This document shows, in pieces, positions 7,336 through 20,391 of a DNA stretch of 64,000 nt. The notes beneath the pieces were generated by a model. That model was given only the letters and a program-made list of their open reading frames with translations, was not told the DNA's origin and did not search any database. This stretch comes from Pseudomonadota bacterium (GTDB lineage: Bacteria; Myxococcota; JACRCW01; JAFGSX01), in contig JBDRCO010000072.1 of NCBI GenBank assembly GCA_043821645.1, positions 64,001 to 128,000 on the forward strand, in the 5' to 3' direction. The position numbers were made by a program, and so were the translations under genes. Numbering within the stretch: position 1 is the stretch's first letter; every line of letters begins with the position of its first letter.

Positions 7336-9987
7336 ATGACCGACAGCCCTTCACGTGCCGTGCAGCGTCTGGACTACACGCCGCCGAGTTTTCTCATCGA
7401 CACCGTGCAGCTCGGCTTCGAGCTCGACGAGCCCGTGACCACGGTGCACGCCACCCTGGCCCTGCGCCGCAATCCCCAGGCCTCGCGCGCCGAGGATCTG
7501 GTGTTGCACGGCCACAAGCTGGTGCTCGTGCGCCTGCTCCTCGACGGTGTCGAGCTGCCGGCGGAGCGCGTCACGATCGACGAGGAGTCCCTGTGCGTGC
7601 AGGGGGTGCCCGATAGCTTCGCACTCGAGATCACCACGCACATCCGCCCCGGCGAGAACAAGTCCCTCGAGGGGCTGTACACCTCGAGCGGCAACTTCTG
7701 CACCCAGTGCGAGCCCGAGGGCTTTCGCTCCATCACCTACTTCCTGGACCGGCCCGACGTCATGGCGCGCTACACCACCACCGTGGTGGCGGACCGCGAG
7801 CGCTACCCCGTGCTGCTGTCCAACGGCAACCCCACCGAGCGCGGCGAACTCGCCGATGGCCGGCACTGGAGGACCTGGCAGGATCCCTACCCCAAGCCGA
7901 GCTACCTGTTCGCCCTGGTGGCAGGAAAGCTCGAGCGCCGCGAGTCCGGCTTCACCACCCGCTCGGGCAAGGTCGTGCCCATCCACATCTACGTGCAACC
8001 TCAGAATGCCGACCAGTGCGACCACGCCCTCGAGGCCGTGCGCAAGTCCATGGCCTGGGACGAGCACGCCTTCGGCCGCGAATACGACCTCGACCTGTTC
8101 ATGATCGTGGCGGTCGACGACTTCAATATGGGCGCGATGGAGAACAAGGGGCTCAACATCTTCAACTCGAAGTACGTGCTCGCGCGCACCGACACCGCGA
8201 CCGACGACGACTTCGAGGGCGTGGTCGGCGTCATCGGCCACGAGTACTTTCACAACTGGTCCGGTGACCGCGTGACCTGCCGCGACTGGTTCCAGCTCAG
8301 CCTGAAAGAGGGTTTCACGGTCTTCCGCGACCAGCAGTTCACCCGCGCCATGACCTCACCCGTGGTCAAGCGCATCAAGGACGTCAACATCCTGCGCACG
8401 GTGCAGTTTCGTGAGGATCAGGGTCCCCTGGCTCACCCGGTGCGCCCCGACAGCTACGTCGAGATCAACAACTTCTACACGGTGACCATCTACAACAAGG
8501 GTGCCGAGGTGGTGCGCATGCTGCACTGTCTCCTTGGCGAGAAGGATTTCAGAAGAGCCACCGACCTGTACTTCGAGCGTCACGACGGGCAAGCGGCCAC
8601 GGTCGACGACCTTTTGCGCTGCATGGCCGAGATCAGCGGGCGCGACCTGTCGCAGTTCGAGCACTGGTACAGCCAGGCCGGCACGCCGACGATCGATGCC
8701 CGGGGTTCCTACGATGCGGGCCGCCAGGTTTACACCTTGACCCTGCAACAGAGCTGCACGCCCACCCCCGGCCAGCCGGACAAGCGACCTTTTCACATTC
8801 CCGTCGCGGTGGGCCTGCTGGACCCCGAGGGCCGCGAGCTGCCGCTGCGCCTGGCCGGAGAGGCAGCCAGCGCCGCCGCCACCACCCGGGTCCTCGAGCT
8901 GACCCAGGCCAGCCAGAGTTTCGAGTTCGTCGACCTTGCTGCGACCCCACTGCCCTCGCTGCTCAGAGACTTCAGCGCGCCGGTAAGGCTGCGCTTCGAG
9001 TACACCGATGCCCAGCTCGCCTTCCTGATGGCCCACGACAGCGACGACTTCAATCGCTGGGACGCGGGCCAGCTGCTGGCCGAGCGCGTGCTCACCCGCC
9101 TGGTCAGCGACGCCAAGCACGGGCGAGAACTGGTGCTGGACCCGGATTTCGCTCGCGCCTTTGCTGCAGTGCTCGAGAACACCAACCTGGATCGACGGCT
9201 GGTGGCCCAGGCCCTGGTGCTGCCCGGCGAGGGCTACCTGGCGGAACGCCTGGACGACGCGGATCCCGAAGCCATACACCTGGCCCGCGAGTTCGTGCGC
9301 GGCGAGCTGGCGCGCAGCTTGCGACCGACCTTCGAGGCCTGTCTGGCGCGCAACACCACACCTGGTCCTTATGCGGCCGACGGCGAGAGCATTGGCAAGC
9401 GCCGCCTGCGAAACCTCTGCCTGAGCTACCTGATGGTGCTCGACGACTCGGAGCTGAGACAGCGCTGCGTCACGCAGTTCGAGACCGCGGACAACATGAC
9501 CGATGTGCTCTCTGCCCTGGCCTGCCTGGCGGACGTGTCCTGTCCCGAGCGCACGCGCGCCCTGCACGCCTTCTACACGAAGTGGCAGCACGAACCCCTG
9601 GTCGTGGACAAGTGGCTGAGCATCCAGGCAACCTCGCACCTGCCTGGCACCCTCGACGCGGTGCAGGCTCTGATGCACCACAAGGCGTTCTCGCTGCAAA
9701 ACCCCAACAAGGTGCGCGCGCTCATTGGCGCTTTCACCCAGGCCAACCCGGCGCGCTTTCACGAGGTCACGGGGCGCGGCTACACCCTGCTCGGCGACCT
9801 GGTGCTGGAGCTGGACCGCTTCAATCCCCTGGTGGCGGCGCGCATGCTCGTCCCGCTCACCTCGTGGCGGCGCTACGAGCCCGGTCGCCGCACCCTGATG
9901 CGGGCCCAGCTCGAACGCGTGCTGGCCACCGAGGGCCTGTCCAAGCACAGCTACGAGATCGCAAGCAAGAGCCTGGCCGACGCCTGA
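7336..9987 (+). CDS. pepN: Aminopeptidase N (M1 family)
   Basis: GAMENKG, HEYFH...E zinc motif, NFYTVTIY, C-terminal NPNKVRAL. Confidence 0.97.
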   Translation: MTDSPSRAVQRLDYTPPSFLIDTVQLGFELDEPVTTVHATLALRRNPQASRAEDLVLHGHKLVLVRLLLDGVELPAERVTIDEESLCVQGVPDSFALEITTHIRPGENKSLEGLYTSSGNFCTQCEPEGFRSITYFLDRPDVMARYTTTVVADRERYPVLLSNGNPTERGELADGRHWRTWQDPYPKPSYLFALVAGKLERRESGFTTRSGKVVPIHIYVQPQNADQCDHALEAVRKSMAWDEHAFGREYDLDLFMIVAVDDFNMGAMENKGLNIFNSKYVLARTDTATDDDFEGVVGVIGHEYFHNWSGDRVTCRDWFQLSLKEGFTVFRDQQFTRAMTSPVVKRIKDVNILRTVQFREDQGPLAHPVRPDSYVEINNFYTVTIYNKGAEVVRMLHCLLGEKDFRRATDLYFERHDGQAATVDDLLRCMAEISGRDLSQFEHWYSQAGTPTIDARGSYDAGRQVYTLTLQQSCTPTPGQPDKRPFHIPVAVGLLDPEGRELPLRLAGEAASAAATTRVLELTQASQSFEFVDLAATPLPSLLRDFSAPVRLRFEYTDAQLAFLMAHDSDDFNRWDAGQLLAERVLTRLVSDAKHGRELVLDPDFARAFAAVLENTNLDRRLVAQALVLPGEGYLAERLDDADPEAIHLAREFVRGELARSLRPTFEACLARNTTPGPYAADGESIGKRRLRNLCLSYLMVLDDSELRQRCVTQFETADNMTDVLSALACLADVSCPERTRALHAFYTKWQHEPLVVDKWLSIQATSHLPGTLDAVQALMHHKAFSLQNPNKVRALIGAFTQANPARFHEVTGRGYTLLGDLVLELDRFNPLVAARMLVPLTSWRRYEPGRRTLMRAQLERVLATEGLSKHSYEIASKSLADA

Positions 9988-10071
9988 TCCCGACGCTGCG
10001 CCAGGCATCGGTCAAATGACCTAGGACGACCAGCCGAAGACGGTTCTCGCCAAAATCCCTACCTTGTAAGC

Positions 10072-11649
10072 ATGGGTGCGACTGCACACTCGGCGGTTCT
10101 GGTCCTGGGGGCTGGATTGTGGCTTCTGAGCCTGGCCTGCGAGCGCACTGCCATCGAATGCGAGCTTGGCTGTGGCCCTGTGCGCGGCCCGCTGGGTCAG
10201 GGTGGCGAGCCTGCGGATGCCGGAGGAGCCGATCGCGAGGATCTGCAGGTCCATTCCGACGACGCGGGAGCACCCATTCTCACCAGCGATGCAGCCTCAG
10301 CCTCGGACAGCGCGCTGGGCGTGGACAGCAGCCTGTGCGGCAATGGCCAGCGCGATCCCGGTGAGACCTGCGATCCTCAAGGCACGTGCCCCGTGCTGTG
10401 CGACGACCAGAACGCCTGCACCGTCGACACCCTGAGCGGTCGTGCGGACAGCTGCACGTCGCTGTGCACCCATGTGGCCACCACCCAGTGCACGGGAGGC
10501 GACGGCTGCTGTCCCCCGGGCTGCGATCAGAGCACGGACAGCGACTGCCCCGCCTGCGGCGCCCTGGACCTGCGCCTTGGCCACAGCGACGTAGCTGTGA
10601 ACTCGAGCGTGGTGCTGCACGGCGGAGGATACTGGTCCGGCAACAGACCTTTGATCTTGGCACCCCGCAGTGACGGCAGCGCCCTGGTGGGCTGGTATGG
10701 CGGCGATGGCCAGGTGCACGTGACACCCTTGACCACCCTGGATACCCGCGCCGGACCGGACCAGCTCCTGGCCGGTGACTCGCTGCGAGGCCTGGTGGCC
10801 CACGATGACGGCTTCGCCGCCCTGGTGGTGCGCGGTCAGGTCATGTGGCTGGTGCGACATGGGCTCGACGGTCAGCTTCGCTGGGAGCTGGCGTTGACCT
10901 CGAGCGTGGATCAGCTCACCGAGGGCGACACCTGGGTCGACGACTGGGGCCACGAAGGGCGCCTGCTGTGGGACGGCGCGCAGTACGTGGCCTATCACGG
11001 CGAGACCCGCTTCTGGGGTGCCCAGGGCAAGCACCAGGGGGATCAGCTGGTGATGGTCGACGCCGCGGGGCAGCGCGCCGGGGGTGGCTGGTGGTGGGGT
11101 TGCAGCCACAGCCTCGACGTGCGCCTGGCGCACAACGGCACGCGTCTGGGACCACTGTGCCTGTCGGACTGCTATCCCGGCCAGGGGGTGTACTTCGACC
11201 ACCAGACCCTGGTGTCGACGGAAAACGGCAATTGCTCGGGAAGTTCGGACGCAGCCCTGGGCGGCCTGGTCGGGGTCGCCGACGGCTTCTTCGTCAGCTA
11301 TGCCGGCCGCGAGGGACGCGACAGCCTCGACGTGGCCCTGCGCTTCGTGCCCAACGGCGGCGCGCCGGGCGAGGAGCTGTGGCTCACCGAGACGCCCGGC
11401 ATCGACGAGGGAAACATCCACCTCGGCCGCTACGGCGAGCACCTGCTGCTGCTTTTCGAGGCCCAGGCCGGACTGCAGGCCCGGGTGCTCCGGCACGACG
11501 GCAGCACCGTCGAGGGCGACGTCAGCCTGGATACCGGCATCGCGGCCTTCAACGATCTGGTGAGCCTGTCTGACGGCGACCTGGGCTGGGTGCACCCGGG
11601 CCCGGATGGTCATAGCCTGCGCGTGAATCGCCTGGCCTACTGCCCCTGA
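10072..11649 (+). CDS. Secreted/lipoprotein with Cys-rich repeats and a beta-rich C-terminal domain
   Basis: Lipobox LSLAC. CGNGQRDPGETCD is a myxobacterial Cys-repeat type; CDDQNACTVD and GDGCCPPGC follow. Confidence 0.75.
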   Translation: MGATAHSAVLVLGAGLWLLSLACERTAIECELGCGPVRGPLGQGGEPADAGGADREDLQVHSDDAGAPILTSDAASASDSALGVDSSLCGNGQRDPGETCDPQGTCPVLCDDQNACTVDTLSGRADSCTSLCTHVATTQCTGGDGCCPPGCDQSTDSDCPACGALDLRLGHSDVAVNSSVVLHGGGYWSGNRPLILAPRSDGSALVGWYGGDGQVHVTPLTTLDTRAGPDQLLAGDSLRGLVAHDDGFAALVVRGQVMWLVRHGLDGQLRWELALTSSVDQLTEGDTWVDDWGHEGRLLWDGAQYVAYHGETRFWGAQGKHQGDQLVMVDAAGQRAGGGWWWGCSHSLDVRLAHNGTRLGPLCLSDCYPGQGVYFDHQTLVSTENGNCSGSSDAALGGLVGVADGFFVSYAGREGRDSLDVALRFVPNGGAPGEELWLTETPGIDEGNIHLGRYGEHLLLLFEAQAGLQARVLRHDGSTVEGDVSLDTGIAAFNDLVSLSDGDLGWVHPGPDGHSLRVNRLAYCP

Positions 11650-11734
11650 CCGCACGCAGCACATCGAGTGGATTCAAACCATTCGAGGGGCACCGTTTTC
11701 ACCGGAGACGAGAGGCCGGCGGGTCCGCTGGAGG

Positions 11735-12304
11735 TCAGCCCTTGGCCCGTCCTAGGCAGCGCCCGTCGCGGGTATCCACGCGCACCTTCTCGCCGCTGGT
11801 CATGTACTCGGGCACCTGGATCACGATCCCGGTCTCGAGAGTGGCGGGCTTGCTCTGGGAGGTGGCGGTGGCGTTCTTGATCACAGGACCGGTGTCCGCG
11901 ATCGTGAGCTCGACCACCTGGGGCAGCTCGATGGTGAGCACCTGCTCGTTGTAGGTCAGGGCGCGCAGCTGCATGCCGTCGAGCAAATAGCCCACGACGT
12001 CTCCCAGGGTCTCGGCGTCGAGGCTGTACTGATCAAAGGTCTCGCTATCCATGAAGGCGTAGCCATCGCCATCCCGGTACAGGTACTGCACCTCGCGCCT
12101 GTCCACGTCGGCCAGTGCCAGCATGTCCGCGCCACGAAAGCTCTTGGTCAGCACCTGGCTGGTCTTGAGATTGCGCAGCTTGGCCTTGATCAGGGTACTG
12201 GCTCCTCGGGCCGACGGCGTCTGGGTCGTGACTTCGAGCACCAGCCAGGGGGCCTCGTCGAGCTCGAGCACAGCGCTCCGCTTGAGTTCAGTGGCCTGGA
12301 TCAC
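11735..12304 (-). CDS. yeiP: Elongation factor P-like protein (EfpL/YeiP type)
   Basis: EF-P fold motifs (KPATLETG, VPEY, VDTR). Loop TPSARGAST has Arg at the tip, as in EfpL/YeiP. GGAGGTG RBS. Confidence 0.85.
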   Translation of the reverse strand: MIQATELKRSAVLELDEAPWLVLEVTTQTPSARGASTLIKAKLRNLKTSQVLTKSFRGADMLALADVDRREVQYLYRDGDGYAFMDSETFDQYSLDAETLGDVVGYLLDGMQLRALTYNEQVLTIELPQVVELTIADTGPVIKNATATSQSKPATLETGIVIQVPEYMTSGEKVRVDTRDGRCLGRAKG

Positions 12305-12323
12305 GGATTCACCTCCCGCGCGC

Positions 12324-12881
12324 TCAGGCTCCGGCCCAGGGCCGGGTCAGGTCGTTCTTGACGCCGAGCAGGTCCAGCACGCGCCCGATGGTGTTGTCGA
12401 CGAGGTCGTCGATGCTTTTGGGCCGGCTGTAGAAGGCAGGCACCGGCGGCATGACGATGCCGCCCATCTCGGTGAGCGAGGTCATCAGGCGCAGGTGCCC
12501 GAGGTGCAGCGGCGTCTCGCGCACCAGGGCGATCAGGTGCCGGCGCTCCTTGAGCGTGATGTCCGCGGCGCGCACGACCAGGTCCTCGGCGTTGCTCGTC
12601 GTCACCGCGGACAGGGTCCGGATCGAGCACGGGGCGATGACCATGGCATCCCAGGCCGTCTGGCCGCTGGCGATGGCCGCACCCACATCCTCGACGTCAT
12701 GCCAGCGGGTGGCTAGCTCGCGCACCCCGTCCAGGCTGTAGTCCGTCTCGATGTGCATCACCCGCGTGGCCGCCTCGGTGACGATGAGATCGGTCTCGAC
12801 ATGGGCCGCCTTGAGCGCGGAGAGTAAACGCACACCGTAGATGGTGCCGGTGGCACCGGTGATGGCAACAACGATCCTCAT
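12324..12881 (-). CDS. ubiX: Flavin prenyltransferase UbiX
   Basis: Start re-called at ATG 12881. Motifs VAITGATG, IASG, APCS, RAAD..LKERR, RETP, PAFY. Confidence 0.95.
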   Translation of the reverse strand: MRIVVAITGATGTIYGVRLLSALKAAHVETDLIVTEAATRVMHIETDYSLDGVRELATRWHDVEDVGAAIASGQTAWDAMVIAPCSIRTLSAVTTSNAEDLVVRAADITLKERRHLIALVRETPLHLGHLRLMTSLTEMGGIVMPPVPAFYSRPKSIDDLVDNTIGRVLDLLGVKNDLTRPWAGA

Positions 12882-13687
12882 GCTCTCTTCTCCCAGCTGA
12901 CCAAGGTTCCGACGTCTCCACCGGCCAGCGCTTCGGCCACACGACCATCCACGTTGGCGTCGACGATGCGCGCACGCACACCCTTTCGCGTGGCCTGCAG
13001 CAACGCTGCAATCTTGCCCGCCATGCCGCCGGTGACGTCGACGTGGGTGGATCCGCCCAGGCGTGCGGCGACATGCTCCCAGTTGCCACGGTGAATGTGC
13101 GGAATGGGCCGGGTCGAACCATTCTTGGGTACACCCTCGTACACGCCGTCGACGTCGGTGGCATAGACCAGGGTGTCGATCCCCAGACCGGTGGCGGCAT
13201 AGGGTGCGATCTGGTCGCCGGACAGGATGGCGCACCCCTGCTCGGTGTCGATGGCGGGCACGCCGTAGAACATCGGCACACCACCCTGCTCGAGGATGTG
13301 CCGCGCCACCTCCAGGTCCATTTTCTCGAGCACACCGGCGCGCAGCCTTGCTGACGCCGAGGCCTGCAGTGGGATCGCGGGCACGCCCACGCCGATGAAG
13401 ATCGCGGCGACCTCAGCCGCCAGCAGGTACTGCAGGCGCTGGGTCTCGGCCCATGCCACCAGGGCTGAAGGCACCTGGGTACCGCGGTCTATGCCGGTGC
13501 GCTGCACGATGCGGTGCCCGTAGGATCCGGCGCCGTGCACCAGCACCAGCCTGTCCAGGCTCGCGCCCGCGATCTCCTCGGCCAGTCGCCGGACCACCTC
13601 GGTGCGCACACGCAGCTCGTCGCTGCCCTTGTCCGTGACCACCGAACCGCCGAGCTTGACCACTGCGTCGATGACTGTCCGTGCCAT
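12878..13687 (-). CDS. ipk: Isopentenyl phosphate kinase (amino-acid kinase family)
   Basis: KLGGSVVTDK, the IPK-type LVHGAGSYGH with conserved His, ILSGD, TDVDGVY and DVTGGMAGKI. ATGA overlap with ubiX. Confidence 0.85.
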   Translation of the reverse strand: MARTVIDAVVKLGGSVVTDKGSDELRVRTEVVRRLAEEIAGASLDRLVLVHGAGSYGHRIVQRTGIDRGTQVPSALVAWAETQRLQYLLAAEVAAIFIGVGVPAIPLQASASARLRAGVLEKMDLEVARHILEQGGVPMFYGVPAIDTEQGCAILSGDQIAPYAATGLGIDTLVYATDVDGVYEGVPKNGSTRPIPHIHRGNWEHVAARLGGSTHVDVTGGMAGKIAALLQATRKGVRARIVDANVDGRVAEALAGGDVGTLVSWEKRA

Positions 13688-13693
13688 GGCTGC

Positions 13694-13723
13694 ACCTTGC
13701 CGCCCGTCGCGGGTGGGCGTCAA
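13694..13723 (-). promoter_or_regulatory. Possible sigma70 promoter giving a leaderless ipk transcript
   Basis: TTGACG-N18-CAAGGT, ending 6 nt before the ipk ATG. The -10 is weak. Confidence 0.3.
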
Positions 13724-13769
13724 GCGTGGGCGACGAGGACCATCCGCACTGGCGTCCACGCGATGCGGC

Positions 13770-14798
13770 TCACCAGTCGCCATCGCGCACACGCAGGATC
13801 TTGATCATCTGCACGTACAGCTTCCGCACCGCCGGCACCACCACCGGGTCGTCGTCCTGCAGAGCCTGGCCGAACTTCTGATGATCCAGACACTTGATCG
13901 AATGAACCGTGGCCAGGGTGGGACTCGCCTTCAGGGTGGGCGCACCCTCATCGTACAGATCGAACCACGGCAGCCCGTAGGTGCTGTAGCTGCGCGCGGT
14001 CACCGGCGTCGCGGGCGGCTCCTCGCCGGTGATCTCGCGCCAGCGCTCACTGTTGACGATGTGCACGAAGATACGCGCGCTGTTGTGGGGATCCCAGGTC
14101 TCCACGCCGTGGGGGTCGGGGTAGATCTTCTGGGTCATGCGGCCGCCGGCGGCCAGGCCCATGCCGGCCCCGGCGCTGCGGGCCCGACTGGGAGCCGGGG
14201 CACCACAGGGGGTGGCCTCCTCGCAGTCGCAGGCCATGTCCACCATACCCTCGTAGGGCGCGTGGTCCGGGAAACGACCGGGCCGCGGCTCGTAGACCTG
14301 CAGCTGCATGCCCCCAAAAAGCTCCTGGCCGGTGACCTGACCCTCGACGCTGTAGCCCATGCCCAGGGGCATGGCCACGAACTGCCGGATCACGCCGGGC
14401 GCCACGCAGATGCCGTCGAGCCAGGGCTGCGGCGGCGTCACCAGGTAGTCCTGTGGCGATGTGTGCAGGCTGTCGGACCAGGGCTGACCGGTCAGCGCGC
14501 AGACCTTGCCGATGCCAACCTTCACTGCCCGCGGCTTCCAGTGCGGCGTGCTCAGGCAGATCCACAGGGCCTCGCGCTGGAACATGGGCAAGAACACGCC
14601 GCCGCGGTCGCGCCATTCGGCCGGGACCCTGTCGGCATAGTCCTGCACCCGGCGCAGCGGAAAGGCACCCAGCCCCGGGGGCAGCGGGTAGCGCTTGTCG
14701 TCGTCGGGGATGCGCAGGGTGCGCTGAAAGGTGACGCGGGTGCCGTCGTTGAAGACCAGGCTGTCGTTGTCGATGCGGACCTTGTCGTGGGTGCTCAT
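13770..14798 (-). CDS. Conserved protein of unknown function (FQRTLRIPDD / FVAMPLG / MGLAAGG family)
   Basis: Strong AAGGAGG RBS and globular composition. The motifs recall a bacterial/fungal uncharacterised family (from memory). Confidence 0.8.
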   Translation of the reverse strand: MSTHDKVRIDNDSLVFNDGTRVTFQRTLRIPDDDKRYPLPPGLGAFPLRRVQDYADRVPAEWRDRGGVFLPMFQREALWICLSTPHWKPRAVKVGIGKVCALTGQPWSDSLHTSPQDYLVTPPQPWLDGICVAPGVIRQFVAMPLGMGYSVEGQVTGQELFGGMQLQVYEPRPGRFPDHAPYEGMVDMACDCEEATPCGAPAPSRARSAGAGMGLAAGGRMTQKIYPDPHGVETWDPHNSARIFVHIVNSERWREITGEEPPATPVTARSYSTYGLPWFDLYDEGAPTLKASPTLATVHSIKCLDHQKFGQALQDDDPVVVPAVRKLYVQMIKILRVRDGDW

Positions 14799-14817
14799 CT
14801 CGTCCTCCTTGTCGGGG

Positions 14818-14844
14818 TAGACGGGAGCGACCCCCAGGCGTCAC
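14818..14844 (-). promoter_or_regulatory. ECF sigma promoter (GTGAC-N16-CGTCTA) for the 13770..14798 gene
   Basis: Minus strand reads GTGAC gcctgggggtcgctcc CGTCTA. Boxes and spacing are identical to the divergent copy. Confidence 0.75.
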
Positions 14845-14911
14845 GGGCAGCGCGTGAGGTCGATGCAACGGCGCGCAAGATCAGGACTATTCGAAAATCG
14901 TCGGCAGCCCG

Positions 14912-14938
14912 GTGACAGATCCCCGGAGGCGACGTCTA
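14912..14938 (+). promoter_or_regulatory. ECF sigma autoregulatory promoter (GTGAC-N16-CGTCTA)
   Basis: GTGAC agatccccggaggcga CGTCTA, 8 nt before GTG 14947. Confidence 0.75.
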
Positions 14939-14946
14939 ATACCCGG

Positions 14947-16014
14947 GTGGATTCCAGGTCCGCCACCGAACAGGAGTTCAGGGACTGCCTGGCGCGAGGT
15001 CAGCGCCGGCAAGCCGCCGAGTGGCTGGTGCGCCAGCACGCGGACACCGTGCTCGGGCTGTGCGTGGCCATGGTGCGCGATCGCACCCTGGCCGAGGACC
15101 TGGCACAGGATGCCTACGGCAAGGCATTCAAGAGCCTGGCCGGCTTTCGCGGCGAGGCCTCGGCGCGCACCTGGCTGCTGACCATCGCCCGCAATCGTTG
15201 CCTCGACCACCTGCGCCAGCGCGCACGCGATCCCTGGGGAGGCGTGGCGCCCGAGGTGGACGGCGACCCGGACCAGCACCCGGATCAAGCACCTTTGCCC
15301 TCGGACCTCTTGATGCGACGCGACGACGTGGAGGATGCACTGGCCGAGCTGTGCGAGGGCGATCGCGCCCTGGTGGTGCTGCGCTTTCGCAATGGCCTCG
15401 ACTACGACGAGCTGGCCATGGCCTTCGGACTGCGCGAGGGCACGGTGCGCATGCGGGTGAGCCGGGCCCTGGCGCGCATGCGGCTGGCCCTCGAGCGCAA
15501 GCATGCGGAGCCCGTGGCGGAGCGCGCGGTGCAGGCCGCGCCGAGCCGTGCCCGCATGGCCGCGGTGCCTGCACCACACCAGATGCCCGATGCCCCGCCA
15601 GCCCCCGTGCCCGAGGACAGGCCCCAGGATGGTGTGTCACCCGCGCGCGCCGGGGAGCTGGACTTCTCCGATGAGGACCTGGGTGCACCGGAGGCACAGG
15701 CTGAGGCGGCGTTCGACGACCGTGACGCCGACGGCGCGGCGGCCGACGAGGCGGCGGGGCTGCCTGCGGAGCTCGAGGAACTCGAGGCCTACGACGACGA
15801 GGTCAAGACCGATCGCGAGCTGGCTGTGCCTGCCCCCGCGGCCGCGCCCGCACCGGCGCGTCGGGGCCCCGCCGAGACCCTGGGCGGCACCGCGCTGCCG
15901 CGGCCGTCCTTCCCGGTCGAGCACCCGCTCACCGCCTACTTCGCAGCCACTCGGGGCGCGCCCAGCCAGGGACTGGTGATGCGGCTGCTGGGGGGAGCGC
16001 GCTCGCTGCTGTAG
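14947..16014 (+). CDS. ECF sigma-70 factor with a long C-terminal extension
   Basis: Region 2 AEDLAQD...FRGEASARTWLLTIARNRCLDHLR and region 4 GLDYDELA...GTVRMRVSRA, then an acidic/Pro-Ala tail. Start placed at GTG 14947, just downstream of the promoter. Confidence 0.88.
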   Translation: MDSRSATEQEFRDCLARGQRRQAAEWLVRQHADTVLGLCVAMVRDRTLAEDLAQDAYGKAFKSLAGFRGEASARTWLLTIARNRCLDHLRQRARDPWGGVAPEVDGDPDQHPDQAPLPSDLLMRRDDVEDALAELCEGDRALVVLRFRNGLDYDELAMAFGLREGTVRMRVSRALARMRLALERKHAEPVAERAVQAAPSRARMAAVPAPHQMPDAPPAPVPEDRPQDGVSPARAGELDFSDEDLGAPEAQAEAAFDDRDADGAAADEAAGLPAELEELEAYDDEVKTDRELAVPAPAAAPAPARRGPAETLGGTALPRPSFPVEHPLTAYFAATRGAPSQGLVMRLLGGARSLL

Positions 16015-16366
16015 GCAGCGCCCCGGGGCACCCTCGTTCGCGCTCGCCCGCAGAACACCACGCGGCCCCGAGGTGCACGCGCACGTCGCGGGCGTTCTCA
16101 CACGGACCCGTCAGGTGGTGAGGTCTCACCCATGGTGCTGGCGCCGGGGCGTTCAGGTGCTACCTAGTTCCCACGCGCTTGCTCGGAGCAACCGGCCGTG
16201 ACCCTGCTGCCCCGCTGGTCGCCTCTACCGCTCGAATCATGTAGAGAGCGGAGTGGCGAGGGGGGTACCGTCCGCCAGGGGCGTGCCACTCGCTGTGCTT
16301 CGACAACTCCGGCGCCGCTGGAACTTCGGTGACGGCGACCGCGGCAGCTGCGGATGGAGGACTCCC

Positions 16367-17686
16367 GTGCGCAAGGTGGTGCTTTACAGCGTCCTGCTGT
16401 TCGTCGGACTGGCGCTGTCCCAGGTCCTGCCGGCGTTGCTGGGCACAGCCCAGGACAGCGTCGCCACGGCGATCCGCGTGCTGACCATGACGGGCCTGGC
16501 CTTCATCATGATCCACGTCGGCTTCGAGTTTCACCTCGACAAGTCGCGGCTCGGCTCCTACGGCTGGGACTACCTGGTGGCCTTCACCGCGGCCTCCTTT
16601 CCCTGGGTGCTGGTGACCGGCTACTTCGTGTTCGTGATGCTGCCGCCCGAGCTGTGGAGCAACTTCGACGCCTGGAAGGAGACCCTCCTGGCCGGCCGCT
16701 TCGCCTCGCCCACCTCGGCGGGGGTGCTGTTCAGCATGCTCGCCGCTGCGGGGCTGGGCGCCACCTGGGTGTTCCGCAAGGCGCGGGTGCTGGCGATCTT
16801 CGACGACCTGGACACCGTGCTGCTGATGATCCCGCTGAAGATGCTCATGGTGGGTCTGGCCTGGCAGCTGGGCCTGATCGTCGTGGTCATGGCTGCCCTG
16901 CTGGCTGTGGCCTACGTCTGGATGCACCGGGTGCGCCTGCCCCTGAGCTGGGGCTGGGTGCTGGGCTATGCCGCGGCGATCGTCGGCATCAGCGAAGTCC
17001 TGTACGCCAGCAGCAAGCTGGTGGACCCGTCGGTGCCCATCCACATCGAGGTGCTGCTGCCCGCCTTCGTGCTCGGCGTCATCGCACGGCCGCGGGAGAC
17101 CGCCCCCGGCGCCGACGCCGCCGGGGTCGAGCACGCGCTGCACGCGCTGCTCGAGCGTCCTGGCGAGCAGCGCGCCACCTCCGTCATCTCGGCCGCCTTC
17201 ATGGTGCTGGTGGGGCTGAGCATGCCTGCCATCCTCGGCGGGCTGGATGGGCAACATCCGCAGCCGGACCCGGCGGTGCTGCACGCCGCGGCCCCCGGCG
17301 CGGTGGTCGACGATCCTGTCCAGCACGGCGGCCCGGCGCCGGGGCAGGCGACCGTGACGGCCAGCCAGCCGAGCCTGGGATGGGGCCTGATCGCCCTGCA
17401 CGTGCTGCTGATCACCCTGCTGAGCAATCTGGGCAAGATGTTCCCCGCCCTGGTCTACCGGCGTGAGGCACACTGGCGCCACCGCCTGGCCGTGGCCGTC
17501 GGCATGTGGCCCCGCGGCGAGGTCGGCGCCGGGGTACTGGTGCTCAGCCTCAGCTACGGCATCGGCGGCCCCGTGGTCACCGTGGCCATGCTCTCGCTGG
17601 CGCTCAACCTGGCGCTCACCGGGGTGTTCATCCTTCTGGTCCGCAAGCTGATCCACGGCGTGCCAGAGGGGCCAGCTGCCGCCTGA
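16367..17686 (+). CDS. Cation:proton (Na+/H+) antiporter family protein
   Basis: GGAGG RBS and GTG start. PTSAG, AIFDDLD and GMWPRGEVG are CPA-type motifs. Multi-TM. Confidence 0.85.
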   Translation: MRKVVLYSVLLFVGLALSQVLPALLGTAQDSVATAIRVLTMTGLAFIMIHVGFEFHLDKSRLGSYGWDYLVAFTAASFPWVLVTGYFVFVMLPPELWSNFDAWKETLLAGRFASPTSAGVLFSMLAAAGLGATWVFRKARVLAIFDDLDTVLLMIPLKMLMVGLAWQLGLIVVVMAALLAVAYVWMHRVRLPLSWGWVLGYAAAIVGISEVLYASSKLVDPSVPIHIEVLLPAFVLGVIARPRETAPGADAAGVEHALHALLERPGEQRATSVISAAFMVLVGLSMPAILGGLDGQHPQPDPAVLHAAAPGAVVDDPVQHGGPAPGQATVTASQPSLGWGLIALHVLLITLLSNLGKMFPALVYRREAHWRHRLAVAVGMWPRGEVGAGVLVLSLSYGIGGPVVTVAMLSLALNLALTGVFILLVRKLIHGVPEGPAAA

Positions 17687-17787
17687 GGCCCGGCTCGGTG
17701 CCGTCCCCTGCGGCGACCTCGACCGGAGACGGTGCCGCCAACCGGACGCAGGTGGCTCGCAGGCCGCCCATTGCATACCCTGAAGGG

Positions 17788-19035
17788 GTGATCGTTCTGT
17801 CTCCAGCCGCCGCCCGGCGCGGCAGGTGCTTCGTCGCCATCCCGCTGTGGCTTGTCGTGGCCTGCCCGGCCGTCCTACCTGGCGCGGATGCGGGCTCACC
17901 GCACCGCGACACGGGCCATGCAGACAGCGGCACGGTGGAGCTTGGATGGGTGGATGTGGCCTCGGGCGTCGACGCCACGACGGAGGAGGATGCGGGACGA
18001 CGCCACGACGCTGCTGTCGGACTCGACAGCGGCACGCCGCCAGACGGCCCTGCGGACGCGGGCCACGGCGACAGCAGCGATGGCGCGACCGCCGGGGATA
18101 TGGAGACGCTCCAGGACGCGTACATCGTCGAGGATGCCGGCCTGGACACTGACGCAGACCCGGGGCCCGATGCCGCAGAGCCGCCCGACGCCGGCTCTAC
18201 CGACGCCCTGATCCTGACCGCGGTCACCCTCAACACCCACAGCTTTCAGGAAGGTCCGGACTCCCTGGCCAAGCTGCAGCAGATCGGCCAGGGCCTGGCG
18301 GCCCTGCAGGCAGACGTGGTGGGCCTCAACGAGGTGATGAGCGGCGAGTTCTGGTCCTACGACTACGGCGGTGCCAGCTACGACGGCACCGCGCTGATCC
18401 AGCAGGAGCTCGAGGACGCCAGCGGCGTGACCTGGTACCACGCTGCGGTCGGCTTCGCTCACTGGAGTAGCGGCGAGCTGATGTCCAACGTGGTGCTGTC
18501 GCGCTATCCCCTTGTCGAGGTCGACAGCCGCGCGTTGACCACCACGGATTTCTGGCCGGCACCCGACGAGCAGCGCAACGCGGTTTACGTGCGCATCGAG
18601 CTGCCCGCGCGCGGTCCGCTCAATCTTTTCGTGACGCACGCCTGGGGCTGGGACTCGGTGGATACCCTGACCCAGATCGCCGAGGTCAAGACCTTCATGG
18701 CCAGCAAGGCCAGGGGCGATGAGGTCCTCGAGCTGCTGCTGGGGGATCTCAACATGCCCTCGACTTATGCAGGCTACGACGCATGGCTCGACGCGCCCCC
18801 CTTTGTGCTCGTCGACACCTCTGCCGTGGCCAACCCGTCCGGTATGGCCGACGCCACGACCGCGGATGAGATGTACCGCATCGACTACGTCCTGGCCCGC
18901 GAGGGTGCTGTGACGAACCAGCAACCGATGCGCCTGCAGTCGTTTCGGTCCTTTGATGGCCTCGAACACCTGGGTCTCACCCTGCCGCAGGTGTCGGACC
19001 ACTACGGCGTGGTCACGGTGTTCGCGCTGGAGTGA
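17788..19035 (+). CDS. Exported endonuclease/exonuclease/phosphatase (EEP) family protein
   Basis: TLNTH, GLNEV, GDLN, RIDYV and SDHYGV motifs. N-terminal lipobox-like LVVAC and a DAG-rich linker. Start approximate. Confidence 0.82.
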   Translation: MIVLSPAAARRGRCFVAIPLWLVVACPAVLPGADAGSPHRDTGHADSGTVELGWVDVASGVDATTEEDAGRRHDAAVGLDSGTPPDGPADAGHGDSSDGATAGDMETLQDAYIVEDAGLDTDADPGPDAAEPPDAGSTDALILTAVTLNTHSFQEGPDSLAKLQQIGQGLAALQADVVGLNEVMSGEFWSYDYGGASYDGTALIQQELEDASGVTWYHAAVGFAHWSSGELMSNVVLSRYPLVEVDSRALTTTDFWPAPDEQRNAVYVRIELPARGPLNLFVTHAWGWDSVDTLTQIAEVKTFMASKARGDEVLELLLGDLNMPSTYAGYDAWLDAPPFVLVDTSAVANPSGMADATTADEMYRIDYVLAREGAVTNQQPMRLQSFRSFDGLEHLGLTLPQVSDHYGVVTVFALE

Positions 19036-19101
19036 ATCGCCGCGGGGCCCGGTGGCGCACTGGCCGAGGTGAACACGGCAGTCCTGGCTGGACCGCGTCG
19101 T

Positions 19102-20391
19102 TCAACGCGGGGGTTCCACCACCGAGAAGTCCTGCGGATCGAAGCCTGCGGGCCGTGTGGCGTCGATGACCCACTTGCTGGTGGTCTCGGTGCGCGGGTC
19201 GCGCGAGGGATCCAGCGACGAGCCGTGGGCGCCGCCGACGATGACCAGGTCGCGGTCGGGTTGCACCCGCGTGGCGATGGCCCACTCCACGGCCACGGGG
19301 TCGTGAATGTCGACATCGCCGTCGACGACGACCACGCGCTTGAGCGACGGATGTGCGGCGAGGGCGGCCAGGCCGGCGTTCTTGCCCTGACCCGCGGCGC
19401 GCTGGTCGATGGACACCACGGCGTGCAGCCAGCCGCACCCGCCCTCGCTGAGCACCACGTCGCGCAGGCCGGCGACGGTGTTCTGCACGATGCGGAAGAT
19501 GCGCGGCTCCTGGGGCACACCCATCAGGATGCGATGCTCGGAGCCTCCGGGCAGGATCACCTGGTAGATGTAATCATCGCGGTGATACAGCCGTTGCACC
19601 TCGAGCACGGGCTGCTGGCGGATGCCGTCGTAGGTGCCGGTGAGGTCGACAAAGGGTCCCTCGTCGGCGAGCTCGCCCGTGAAGCGCGCCTTCCACACCA
19701 TCTCGGCGCCCGCGGGCACCTGCAGTCCGTCGAGGTCGAAGACGTCCAGGGGCTGGCCGAGCAGCGAGGCGGCACAGGCCATCTCGTCGAAGTCGGGGCC
19801 AAAGCTGATGGCCGCAGCGAGCCCGACCGCCGGGTGCAGGCCCACCACCACCGCGACCTCGGCCTGGCCACCTCCCAGCTCCAGGATCTGGTGCAGGTGG
19901 CGGGGCACGATGCGCACGGCAAAGCGGTTTCCGCCCAGGTACATCATGCGGTGATACGACAGGTTCATGCCGAAGGCCGGGTGGCGGGCGCAGATCACGC
20001 AGGCCGAGGCGTACACCCGCTCGCTGCGCGGGTAGAAGCGCATCAAGGGAACCAGGCTGTCGAGCTGCGGCGTGGCATGCTGGTTGGCGAGAAAGGGGGC
20101 GTCGGTGACGACGCGTAGCTCGCCGGGCGTCGAGATCGCGTCGGCCACATGGCGTACCAGCCCTTCGACGCTGCAGTCCAGGGCCCTGGCCAGCAAGGGA
20201 CGGGTGGCTGCGATGTTGGCGAGCACAGGGGTACGATGGCCCTCGAGGTTCTCGAGCAGCACCGCGCGCGATCCGGCGTCGAAGATGCGGCGCGCGGCCT
20301 GGTAGTTCGTGCTCAGGGGCTCCCGCACGCGATCGAGCCAGCCCAGGCTGTCGGCCTGCTGCACGAAGAAGCGAAGATCTGGACTGCTCAT
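19102..20391 (-). CDS. UbiD-family prFMN decarboxylase, probable anhydromevalonate-phosphate decarboxylase
   Basis: 429 aa from ATG 20391. Motifs YHRM, EGPFVDLTGTYD, LPGGSEH..LMG.P.EP, GGCGWLHAVVSI, AHPSLK.VVVVD, VEWAIATR and GSSLDPS. Confidence 0.85.
   Translation of the reverse strand: MSSPDLRFFVQQADSLGWLDRVREPLSTNYQAARRIFDAGSRAVLLENLEGHRTPVLANIAATRPLLARALDCSVEGLVRHVADAISTPGELRVVTDAPFLANQHATPQLDSLVPLMRFYPRSERVYASACVICARHPAFGMNLSYHRMMYLGGNRFAVRIVPRHLHQILELGGGQAEVAVVVGLHPAVGLAAAISFGPDFDEMACAASLLGQPLDVFDLDGLQVPAGAEMVWKARFTGELADEGPFVDLTGTYDGIRQQPVLEVQRLYHRDDYIYQVILPGGSEHRILMGVPQEPRIFRIVQNTVAGLRDVVLSEGGCGWLHAVVSIDQRAAGQGKNAGLAALAAHPSLKRVVVVDGDVDIHDPVAVEWAIATRVQPDRDLVIVGGAHGSSLDPSRDPRTETTSKWVIDATRPAGFDPQDFSVVEPPR

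What the first reader, a model, noticed from the sequence alone, without database searches (positions are those of the whole stretch)
12324..20391. Archaeal-type mevalonate pathway module (AMPD-like UbiD + UbiX + IPK) in a Myxococcota-like bacterium
Seen: an IPK with the HGAGSYGH motif, a canonical UbiX, and 5.4 kb away a short (429 aa) UbiD carrying EGPFVDLTGTYD, GGCGWLHAVVSI, AHPSLK and GSSLDPS. Known: in the archaeal (Aeropyrum-type) route, AcnX-type phosphomevalonate dehydratase makes anhydromevalonate-5-P. A prFMN-dependent UbiD homolog (AMPD, cofactor supplied by UbiX) converts this to IP, and IPK makes IPP. These UbiD motifs match my recollection of archaeal AMPDs rather than E. coli UbiD. 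Inference: this organism makes IPP by the archaeal route, which is rarely reported in bacteria, whereas model myxobacteria use the classical route. The dehydratase is not in this window.
Basis: partly seen in the sequence, partly recalled or inferred. Interest (0 to 1): 0.82.

Follow-up and report, generated by a model that had tools for sequence, protein, structure and literature searches.

The report
Archaeal isoprenoid route in sulfate-reducing myxobacterium
An uncultured, sulfate-reducing relative of the myxobacteria appears to make its isoprenoid building blocks with the energy-saving route typical of archaea, a known pathway that has rarely been seen in bacteria.

Summary
The three genes are real: IPK and UbiX are coupled, and the 429-aa UbiD lies 5.4 kb away. 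The core inference holds. Elsewhere the genome carries both subunits of an archaeal-type phosphomevalonate dehydratase with the substrate and Fe-S residues kept, HMGR-MVK and IDI-2. DXR, IspG and PMK were not found. The UbiD is the genome's only one, falls among archaeal UbiDs that sit beside AcnX, and a 56% identical relative lies in an IDI2-HMGR-MVK-UbiD-AcnX-IPK operon. No characterised AMPD was in my tree and nothing was assayed. Two complications: an Anaerolineae-like MVD/PMD gene may give a second route to isopentenyl phosphate, and no HMG-CoA synthase was found (95% complete MAG). The host encodes dsr/apr/qmo, which fits an oxygen-labile dehydratase. AcnX-IIb plus IPK occur in 3 of 301 sampled genomes of the phylum (read as Myxococcota), with two separate UbiD lineages. 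The pathway is already known in a Chloroflexota bacterium (Kanno 2024), and this scan noted it before in a Gemmatimonadota genome. Verdict: new member of a known kind, in a further phylum.

The parts
19102..20391 (-). [quoted passage not shown]
   Evidence: TIGR00148 only; nearest solved structure HmfF 6h6v, 33% identity, TM 0.95; relatives beside AcnX and in a full MVA operon; tree
12878..13687 (-). Isopentenyl phosphate kinase (IPK), HGAGSYGH motif from residue 51
   Evidence: NF040647 175.4/120; best PDB matches are IPKs, 3ll9 E 5e-39, against FomA E 5e-16; single copy
12324..12881 (-). UbiX flavin prenyltransferase (prFMN synthase), translationally coupled to IPK; the pair is kept in the same-family genome G001
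   Evidence: single copy; best PDB match 6m8t 179 bits
20444..21979 (-). Unrelated-looking 511-aa protein directly upstream of UbiD; a similar gene precedes the UbiD of G001. Context only, no role in the pathway proposed
   Evidence: only sub-cut-off Pfam hits
11735..12304 (-). Elongation factor P, 19 bp downstream of UbiX. Context only; not seen next to UbiX in the G001 locus

Best explanation
The organism makes IPP by the archaeal (Aeropyrum-type) mevalonate pathway from genes scattered over four contigs. HMGR (C68) reduces HMG-CoA to mevalonate; MVK (C68) makes mevalonate 5-phosphate; the two-subunit [4Fe-4S] AcnX type IIb (C63) dehydrates it to trans-anhydromevalonate 5-phosphate; the window's UbiD, loaded with prFMN made by the window's UbiX, decarboxylates that to isopentenyl phosphate; the window's IPK makes IPP; IDI-2 (C108) makes DMAPP. 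Shown here: presence, family membership and conserved residues of each gene, and gene-order links in relatives. Inferred: every activity, above all the substrate of the UbiD, and flux in vivo. The lower pathway probably came from archaea as an operon, replaced the MVD+PMK route kept by the sister family, and was later scattered.
For: AcnX-L scores 310 bits to T. kodakarensis AcnX (7cnr) against 219 to type I, and keeps the MVA5P contacts named by Watanabe 2021 (G48-V49-S50, N53, N79, E129-S130-S131, K361, Y365; small-subunit T63) and the PMDh cysteine pattern (sites A, 1, B; no site C) of Komeyama 2023. The UbiD is the only one. AcnX lies in the same locus for 11 of 18 archaeal genome loci, 0 of 5 Pseudomonadota loci, 36 of 80 metagenome loci and 0 of 20 distant UbiD loci. 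The best metagenome relative (L074, 56%) is in IDI2-HMGR-MVK-UbiD-AcnXL-AcnXS-IPK and in the query's clade (SH-aLRT 100 for 11 rows). 13 of 120 UbiD homologs share a contig length with one of 120 AcnX-L homologs, against 0.68 expected (indirect). G001 (same family) has UbiD, AcnX L+S, IPK-UbiX and HMGR-MVK; G002 and G003 (sister family) lack IPK, AcnX and UbiD but have MVD+PMK. No DXR, IspG, MqnA/D or MqnC found. dsrAB, aprBA and qmo read from translations on C81.
Against: No characterised AMPD sequence was available to me, so the tree places the query by context labels and archaeal record titles only. The nearest solved structure is a furan-acid decarboxylase, HmfF. In this genome UbiD is on a different contig from AcnX and not coupled to IPK. 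An MVD/PMD-family gene on C95 could carry the flux instead. HMG-CoA synthase was not found in G000, G001 or G002, so the upper pathway is open. 44 of 80 metagenome loci and 7 of 18 archaeal loci had no AcnX in the stretch held (many are short). Absences rest on a 94.7% complete MAG.
Confidence: 0.85

Rival explanations
1. Two routes side by side (compatible with the best explanation): the C95 GHMP decarboxylase (C95:27781-28791) is a phosphomevalonate decarboxylase of the Anaerolineae kind and converts MVA5P to IP in one ATP-dependent step, as an oxygen-tolerant backup or as the main route; both routes end at the same IPK.
For: It passes TIGR01240 (242/171), its best PDB match is 6n0x (295 bits against 196 for the next family; 6n0x being the Anaerolinea enzyme is recalled, Aoki 2022 names an A. 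thermophila PMD structure), it shares the His of the SxxGH motif with 6n0x where the sister family's MVDs have Met (26, 49, 76), its named homologs are Anaerolineae/Chloroflexota, and no PMK was found to feed a true DMD. C95 has a typical tetranucleotide profile for its size and GC3 0.82 (70).
Against: By Table 4 of Dellas 2013 its residues are MDD-like (Tyr, Lys, Ser, Ser, Ser), not Roseiflexus MPD-like; it fails the haloarchaeal PMD model (208/475); G001 (82% complete) and G045 (98%) show no such gene (56, 99, 101), so it may be a recent, unused or mis-binned gain (MAG contamination 3.95%).
Confidence: 0.5
2. The organism uses PMD + IPK (haloarchaeal/Chloroflexi type) alone; the UbiD/UbiX pair is a catabolic aromatic or furan acid decarboxylase like HmfF/HmfG and the AcnX does something else.
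For: Best solved relative is HmfF; JGI labels 9 of the 120 homologs 2,5-furandicarboxylate decarboxylase against 1 labelled AMPD; the genes are not linked in this genome.
Against: Identity to HmfF is 33% against 52% to archaeal AcnX-adjacent UbiDs; Pseudomonadota rows fall outside the 44-row clade holding the query; the positions I recall as HmfF's carboxylate-binding arginines (R304, R331) align to Q294 and W321 (W321 invariant in 117 homologs); the AcnX has all PMDh residues; close relatives sit in MVA operons.
Confidence: 0.08
3. The UbiD serves quinone synthesis (MqnL of the futalosine route, or UbiD of a ubiquinone route).
For: It is the only UbiD; a UbiB-like kinase gene lies directly upstream of AcnX-L (368/488 bits, below cut-off); MenA-like and MenG-like genes exist while MenB is not found over its cut-off.
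Against: No MqnA/D or MqnC in 4 of 4 class genomes; the two UbiA-family matches in G000 are a MenA-like gene and a weak 57-bit hit; MqnL and UbiD models score far below cut-off.
Confidence: 0.03
4. The genes are archaeal contamination or mis-assembly in the MAG.
For: Nearest named relatives in genome contigs are archaeal; MAG contamination is 3.95%.
Against: The genes lie inside 95-356 kb contigs among bacterial genes with host GC3 and tetranucleotide usage; the same-family genome has orthologs at 55-69% identity with shared neighbours.
Confidence: 0.01

Closest known systems
Archaeal mevalonate pathway of Aeropyrum pernix / Methanosarcina mazei / Thermococcus kodakarensis (PMDh = AcnX type IIb, AMPD, prFMN synthase, IPK)
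   Same: Same gene set; PMDh residues and cysteine pattern match TkAcnX; split large and small subunits in tandem.
   Different: Bacterial host; class II HMGR (TIGR00532); no archaeal HMG-CoA synthase found; an extra MVD/PMD-family gene; genes on four contigs.
Archaeal mevalonate pathway in Candidatus Promineifilum breve (Chloroflexota; Kanno et al. 2024, PMC11337835)
   Same: A bacterium carrying PMDh + AMPD + IPK. I saw only the title in reference lists and a citing sentence; the paper is not held.
   Different: Different phylum; here sulfate reducer; relation of the two AMPDs not tested. The unseen full text or supplements may already list other bacterial MAGs.
Haloarchaeal/Chloroflexi alternative mevalonate pathway (PMD + IPK; Dellas 2013, PMC3857490)
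   Same: IPK present, PMK not found, and a GHMP decarboxylase with Anaerolineae affinity.
   Different: The decarboxylase has MDD-like residues at the Dellas positions, and PMDh + AMPD are present as well.
HmfF of Pelotomaculum thermopropionicum (PDB 6h6v)
   Same: Nearest solved structure; short UbiD, TM 0.95.
   Different: 33% identity; different clade context; recalled substrate arginines replaced.
Classical mevalonate pathway of myxobacteria (HMGS, HMGR, MVK, PMK, MVD)
   Same: HMGR-MVK gene pair; seen with MVD+PMK in G002, G003, G175, G289.
   Different: PMK and HMGS not found in G000/G001; IPK route instead.

Membership tests
Archaeal (anhydromevalonate) MVA pathway | Two-subunit AcnX type IIb (PMDh) with MVA5P-binding residues and Cys sites A, 1, B | tested here: met
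   against residues read in PMC8184944 and PMC10040528
Archaeal (anhydromevalonate) MVA pathway | UbiD homolog of the AMPD clade | tested here: met
   By gene context and tree with archaeal AcnX-adjacent UbiDs. No characterised AMPD was among the rows.
Archaeal (anhydromevalonate) MVA pathway | AMPD and PMDh activity on their substrates | not testable with these tools
   needs assay
Archaeal (anhydromevalonate) MVA pathway | prFMN synthase (UbiX) and IPK | tested here: met
   (both over curated cut-offs)
Archaeal (anhydromevalonate) MVA pathway | HMGR, MVK, IDI | tested here: met
   TIGR00532 363/260, TIGR00549 231/163, TIGR02151 346/281
Archaeal (anhydromevalonate) MVA pathway | HMG-CoA synthase | tested here: not met
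   not found with PF01154, PF08540, TIGR00748 or the G003 protein; MAG is 94.7% complete
Archaeal (anhydromevalonate) MVA pathway | No DMD/PMD homolog involved | tested here: inconclusive
   an MVD/PMD-family gene is present on C95; its use is unknown
Haloarchaeal/Chloroflexi MVA pathway | Decarboxylase specific for mevalonate 5-phosphate | tested here: inconclusive
   His motif and Anaerolineae affinity for; Dellas residues and NF040704 208/475 against
Classical MVA pathway | Phosphomevalonate kinase | tested here: not met
   TIGR01220 matches only the MVK weakly; the G003 PMK finds nothing; four GHMP matches are MVK, the decarboxylase and two read from sequence and neighbours as a heptose-phosphate kinase and a homoserine kinase
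MEP pathway | DXR and IspG | tested here: not met
   0 matches in G000; Dxs, IspD, IspF, IspH and DXR-II were not searched
MqnL / ubiquinone UbiD | Model score over cut-off and partner mqn/ubi genes | tested here: not met
Myxococcota (host) | Marker-gene placement | not tested
   Inferred: the phylum sample holds a family of 115 of 301 genomes, many of 9-13 Mb, 90 with HMGS; homolog labels are Deltaproteobacteria and Polyangiaceae

The most novel reading that the evidence does not exclude
A sulfate-reducing myxobacterial lineage runs a patchwork mevalonate pathway not described in any organism I could find: two parallel routes from mevalonate 5-phosphate to isopentenyl phosphate (oxygen-labile, ATP-saving PMDh/AMPD from archaea and an ATP-dependent PMD from Anaerolineae, switched by redox state), fed not by HMG-CoA synthase but by leucine breakdown that stops at HMG-CoA because HMG-CoA lyase is missing (no HMGL-like protein in G000; a LiuB-like carboxyltransferase lies two ORFs upstream of HMGR-MVK).
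Probability: 0.2. Interest if true: 0.72.

Novelty: new member of a known kind. Interest (0 to 1): 0.5.

Why it matters
It widens the bacterial range of a pathway called almost archaea-specific to a further phylum, with at least two separate UbiD lineages there, and ties it to an anaerobic, energy-poor way of life as the ATP-saving argument predicts. The class offers a natural before-and-after pair: one family with MVD+PMK, its sister with PMDh+AMPD+IPK. High-GC bacterial, probably mesophilic versions of PMDh, AMPD and prFMN synthase, and single-chain PMDh fusions among the relatives, are ready candidates for engineering the ATP-saving route in E. coli, where PMDh is the weak step (PMC12547664, passages seen).

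Tried and rejected
Contamination, MqnL/ubiquinone role and a classical or MEP route were tested and rejected as above. (MVD across the phylum) used too strict a threshold, rang nowhere, and is uninformative; the phylum-wide MVD count is therefore unknown. Promoter/terminator scan found nothing above shuffles. Sequencing runs: no RNA holder listed; the best DNA holder may be the source sample, so it is no independent support; its contigs cover the stretch in pieces at near identity. The AlphaFold model (pLDDT 96) and Foldseek gave only the UbiD fold, with no AMPD structure among the rows shown. ESM Atlas gave UbiD clusters, one mostly bacterial and two mostly archaeal. G289's AcnX lacks the PMDh motifs and G175's IPK-like gene lies in a prenyltransferase/MfnB cluster beside a classical MVA genome, so both were dropped from the 3 of 301 count. 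Motif scans by recalled regular expressions are leads only: no haem-copper oxidase motif was hit, but no profile search was run. Literature: searches found no paper placing this pathway in Myxococcota or Deltaproteobacteria; Kanno 2024, Thomas 2019, Hayakawa 2018, Payne 2019 and Hoshino & Villanueva 2023 are not held, so prior mention there is not excluded. Murphy 2021 (anaerobic Myxococcota) has 0 occurrences of mevalonate or isoprenoid in its main text; its supplements were not seen.
Full report
Observation. IPK passes the curated archaeal IPK model (175.4/120), UbiX passes its models, and UbiD passes only the broad family model while failing the E. coli UbiD, MqnL-type and VdcC models. Four unrelated ORFs separate UbiD from IPK-UbiX, so the window holds parts, not a module.

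Rest of the genome (7.07 Mb, 140 contigs, 94.7% complete, 3.95% contamination). AcnX large (397 aa) and small (129 aa) subunits are coupled on C63. Class II HMGR and MVK are adjacent on C68; IDI-2 is on C108 beside a thiolase-like gene. The window's UbiD, UbiX and IPK are single copy. DXR and IspG gave 0 matches while ringing in 10 and 9 of 14 control genomes. PMK was not found by TIGR01220 (best match is the MVK, 25.7 bits) or with the PMK of the sister family.

Is the AcnX a phosphomevalonate dehydratase? AcnX has bacterial hydroxyproline dehydratases and untested subfamilies too (passages of PMC10040528 and PMC8184944). The large subunit scores 310 bits to T. kodakarensis AcnX and 219 to type I; the small subunit 123 against 68. 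Every MVA5P contact listed in the passage seen for TkAcnX has its counterpart in those alignments, and the cysteines follow the PMDh pattern with site C absent. The paper notes that purified TkAcnX itself was inactive, so the residue match is to a substrate-bound structure, not an assayed enzyme.

Is the UbiD an AMPD? The nearest solved structure is HmfF at 33% identity; I had no characterised AMPD sequence. Context is the test. Among 40 genome loci the top hits are archaeal (up to 52%). AcnX lies in the locus for 11 of 18 archaeal loci and 0 of 5 Pseudomonadota loci among L015-L037, for 36 of the 80 metagenome loci kept (of 539 confirmed), and for 0 of 20 distant UbiD loci. L074, the best metagenome hit (56%, GC 0.69), reads IDI2-HMGR-MVK-UbiD-AcnXL-AcnXS-IPK. 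A FastTree of 127 rows (13 redundant Bacteroidota rows left out, 4 loci too short) and an IQ-TREE quick tree of 52 rows that I chose put the query with G001, L074, L080 and proteins labelled Deltaproteobacteria, Polyangiaceae and Pseudomonadota (support 100), inside a 19-row clade (100) with AcnX-adjacent Nitrososphaerota proteins, inside a 44-row clade (99) that excludes the Pseudomonadota and MqnL-like rows. 13 of 120 UbiD homologs share a contig length with one of 120 AcnX-L homologs (0.68 expected, maximum 3), an indirect sign of linkage. An archaeal donor is my inference; no donor test was run.

Distribution. The class has 4 genomes. G001 (same family, 82% complete) has UbiD (67%), AcnX L+S, IPK-UbiX and HMGR-MVK, and no MVD or PMK found. 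G002 and G003 have MVD+PMK and no IPK over cut-off, AcnX or UbiD. In 301 sampled phylum genomes AcnX matched 4 and IPK 4; three genomes have both (G000, G001, G045). G045 (98%) has a clean set: UbiD-AcnXL-AcnXS-UbiX-IPK, IDI2-MVK-HMGR and HMGS. Its UbiD does not group with the query's clade (AU p 6e-80; the group was named after I had seen the first tree), which points to a separate gain. The phylum reads as Myxococcota from the make-up of the sample and homolog labels; no marker tree was made.

Way of life. C81 carries ORFs that read as aprBA, qmo, dsrAB, dsrC and dsrMK (read from translations, not profile-tested). PMDh is oxygen-labile and the route spends one ATP fewer (PMC12547664, passages), which suits a sulfate reducer. 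Sulfate-reducing Myxococcota are known (bioRxiv 2021.07.06.451402, passages).

Against a simple reading. First, C95:27781-28791 encodes a GHMP decarboxylase over the DMD cut-off. Its best PDB match is 6n0x, its named homologs are Anaerolineae or Chloroflexota, and it has His where the sister family's MVDs have Met (105 of 120 homologs have His). Yet its other residues are MDD-like by Dellas 2013 (passages). With no PMK it is either a PMD giving a second route to IP or an orphan; G001 and G045 show none. Second, HMG-CoA synthase was not found in G000, G001 or G002, nor in the L074 operon, though 117 of 301 phylum genomes have it. G000 also has no HMGL-like protein, and has a carboxyltransferase two ORFs upstream of HMGR, a biotin carboxylase, acyl-CoA dehydrogenases and an enoyl-CoA hydratase, none passing a leucine-specific model. 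Leucine-fed HMG-CoA is a hypothesis; an assembly gap is the plain alternative.

Quinone rival. MqnA/D and MqnC gave 0 of 4 in the class; MenB passes only in G002 and G003; G000 has MenA-like and MenG-like genes. The UbiD has no quinone pathway to serve; how the organism gets its naphthoquinone ring is unexplained.

Prior knowledge. The pathway and its presence in one Chloroflexota bacterium are published (Kanno 2024, seen only as title and citing sentence). Hoshino & Gaucher 2018 (passages), Zhu 2024 (passages) and Aoki 2022 (passages, 42, 65) name no myxobacterial case in what I saw. Ten searches (listed under Tried and rejected) found none; key papers and all supplements were not seen. This scan noted an archaeal-type operon in a Gemmatimonadota genome before (e1-1161193; not checked by me).

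Verdict. It is a new member of a known kind, in a further phylum, with two open oddities. Interest 0.5.

Noticed in passing
proteins P0250, P0251, P0253, P0254, P0255, P0259, P0272, P0308: 8 of 120 AcnX-L homologs are single-chain fusions in the order large-small (547-587 aa), the reverse of type I AcnX, with PMDh cysteine and substrate motifs kept; P0308 is labelled Deltaproteobacteria. Possible one-gene phosphomevalonate dehydratase.
   Followed up: partly
G000 C81:4-23 kb: Dissimilatory sulfate reduction cluster (aprBA, qmo, dsrAB, dsrC, dsrMK) in a Myxococcota-like genome.
   Followed up: partly
G000 C95:27781-28791 (L008:922-1932, -): MVD/PMD-family decarboxylase with Anaerolineae affinity and no PMK partner, beside an acyl-CoA thioesterase gene.
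   Followed up: yes
G000 genome-wide; C68:56565-58283: No HMG-CoA synthase and no HMGL-like protein (so no HMG-CoA lyase or LeuA found); a carboxyltransferase lies two ORFs upstream of HMGR-MVK.
   Followed up: partly
G000 C136:17.2-19.3 kb and C89:88.2-88.9 kb: MenA-like gene with a polyprenyl synthase, and a MenG-like gene, without MenB or mqn genes: possible salvage of the naphthoquinone ring.
   Followed up: partly
L187 (G045:C27) 9710-13982: Complete UbiD-AcnXL-AcnXS-UbiX-IPK operon in another family of the phylum, from a different UbiD lineage.
   Followed up: yes
L189 (G175:C45): IPK-like gene in a cluster with an MfnB-like gene and two polyprenyl synthases in a genome with the classical MVA cluster; looks like a specialised-metabolite cluster.
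   Followed up: partly
window 13770-14798 (-): 342-aa protein upstream of IPK with no Pfam or NCBIfam match, next to an ECF-type sigma factor at 14854-16014 (+).
   Followed up: no
G000 C63:23206-24894: UbiB/ABC1-like kinase gene directly upstream of the AcnX pair on the same strand (below the UbiB cut-off).
   Followed up: partly
L196:7278-10084 (G000 C3:257-260 kb): Acyl-CoA carboxyltransferase close to a beta-keto acid cleavage enzyme (BKACE) gene; the sister family has the BKACE-like gene beside a crotonase.
   Followed up: no
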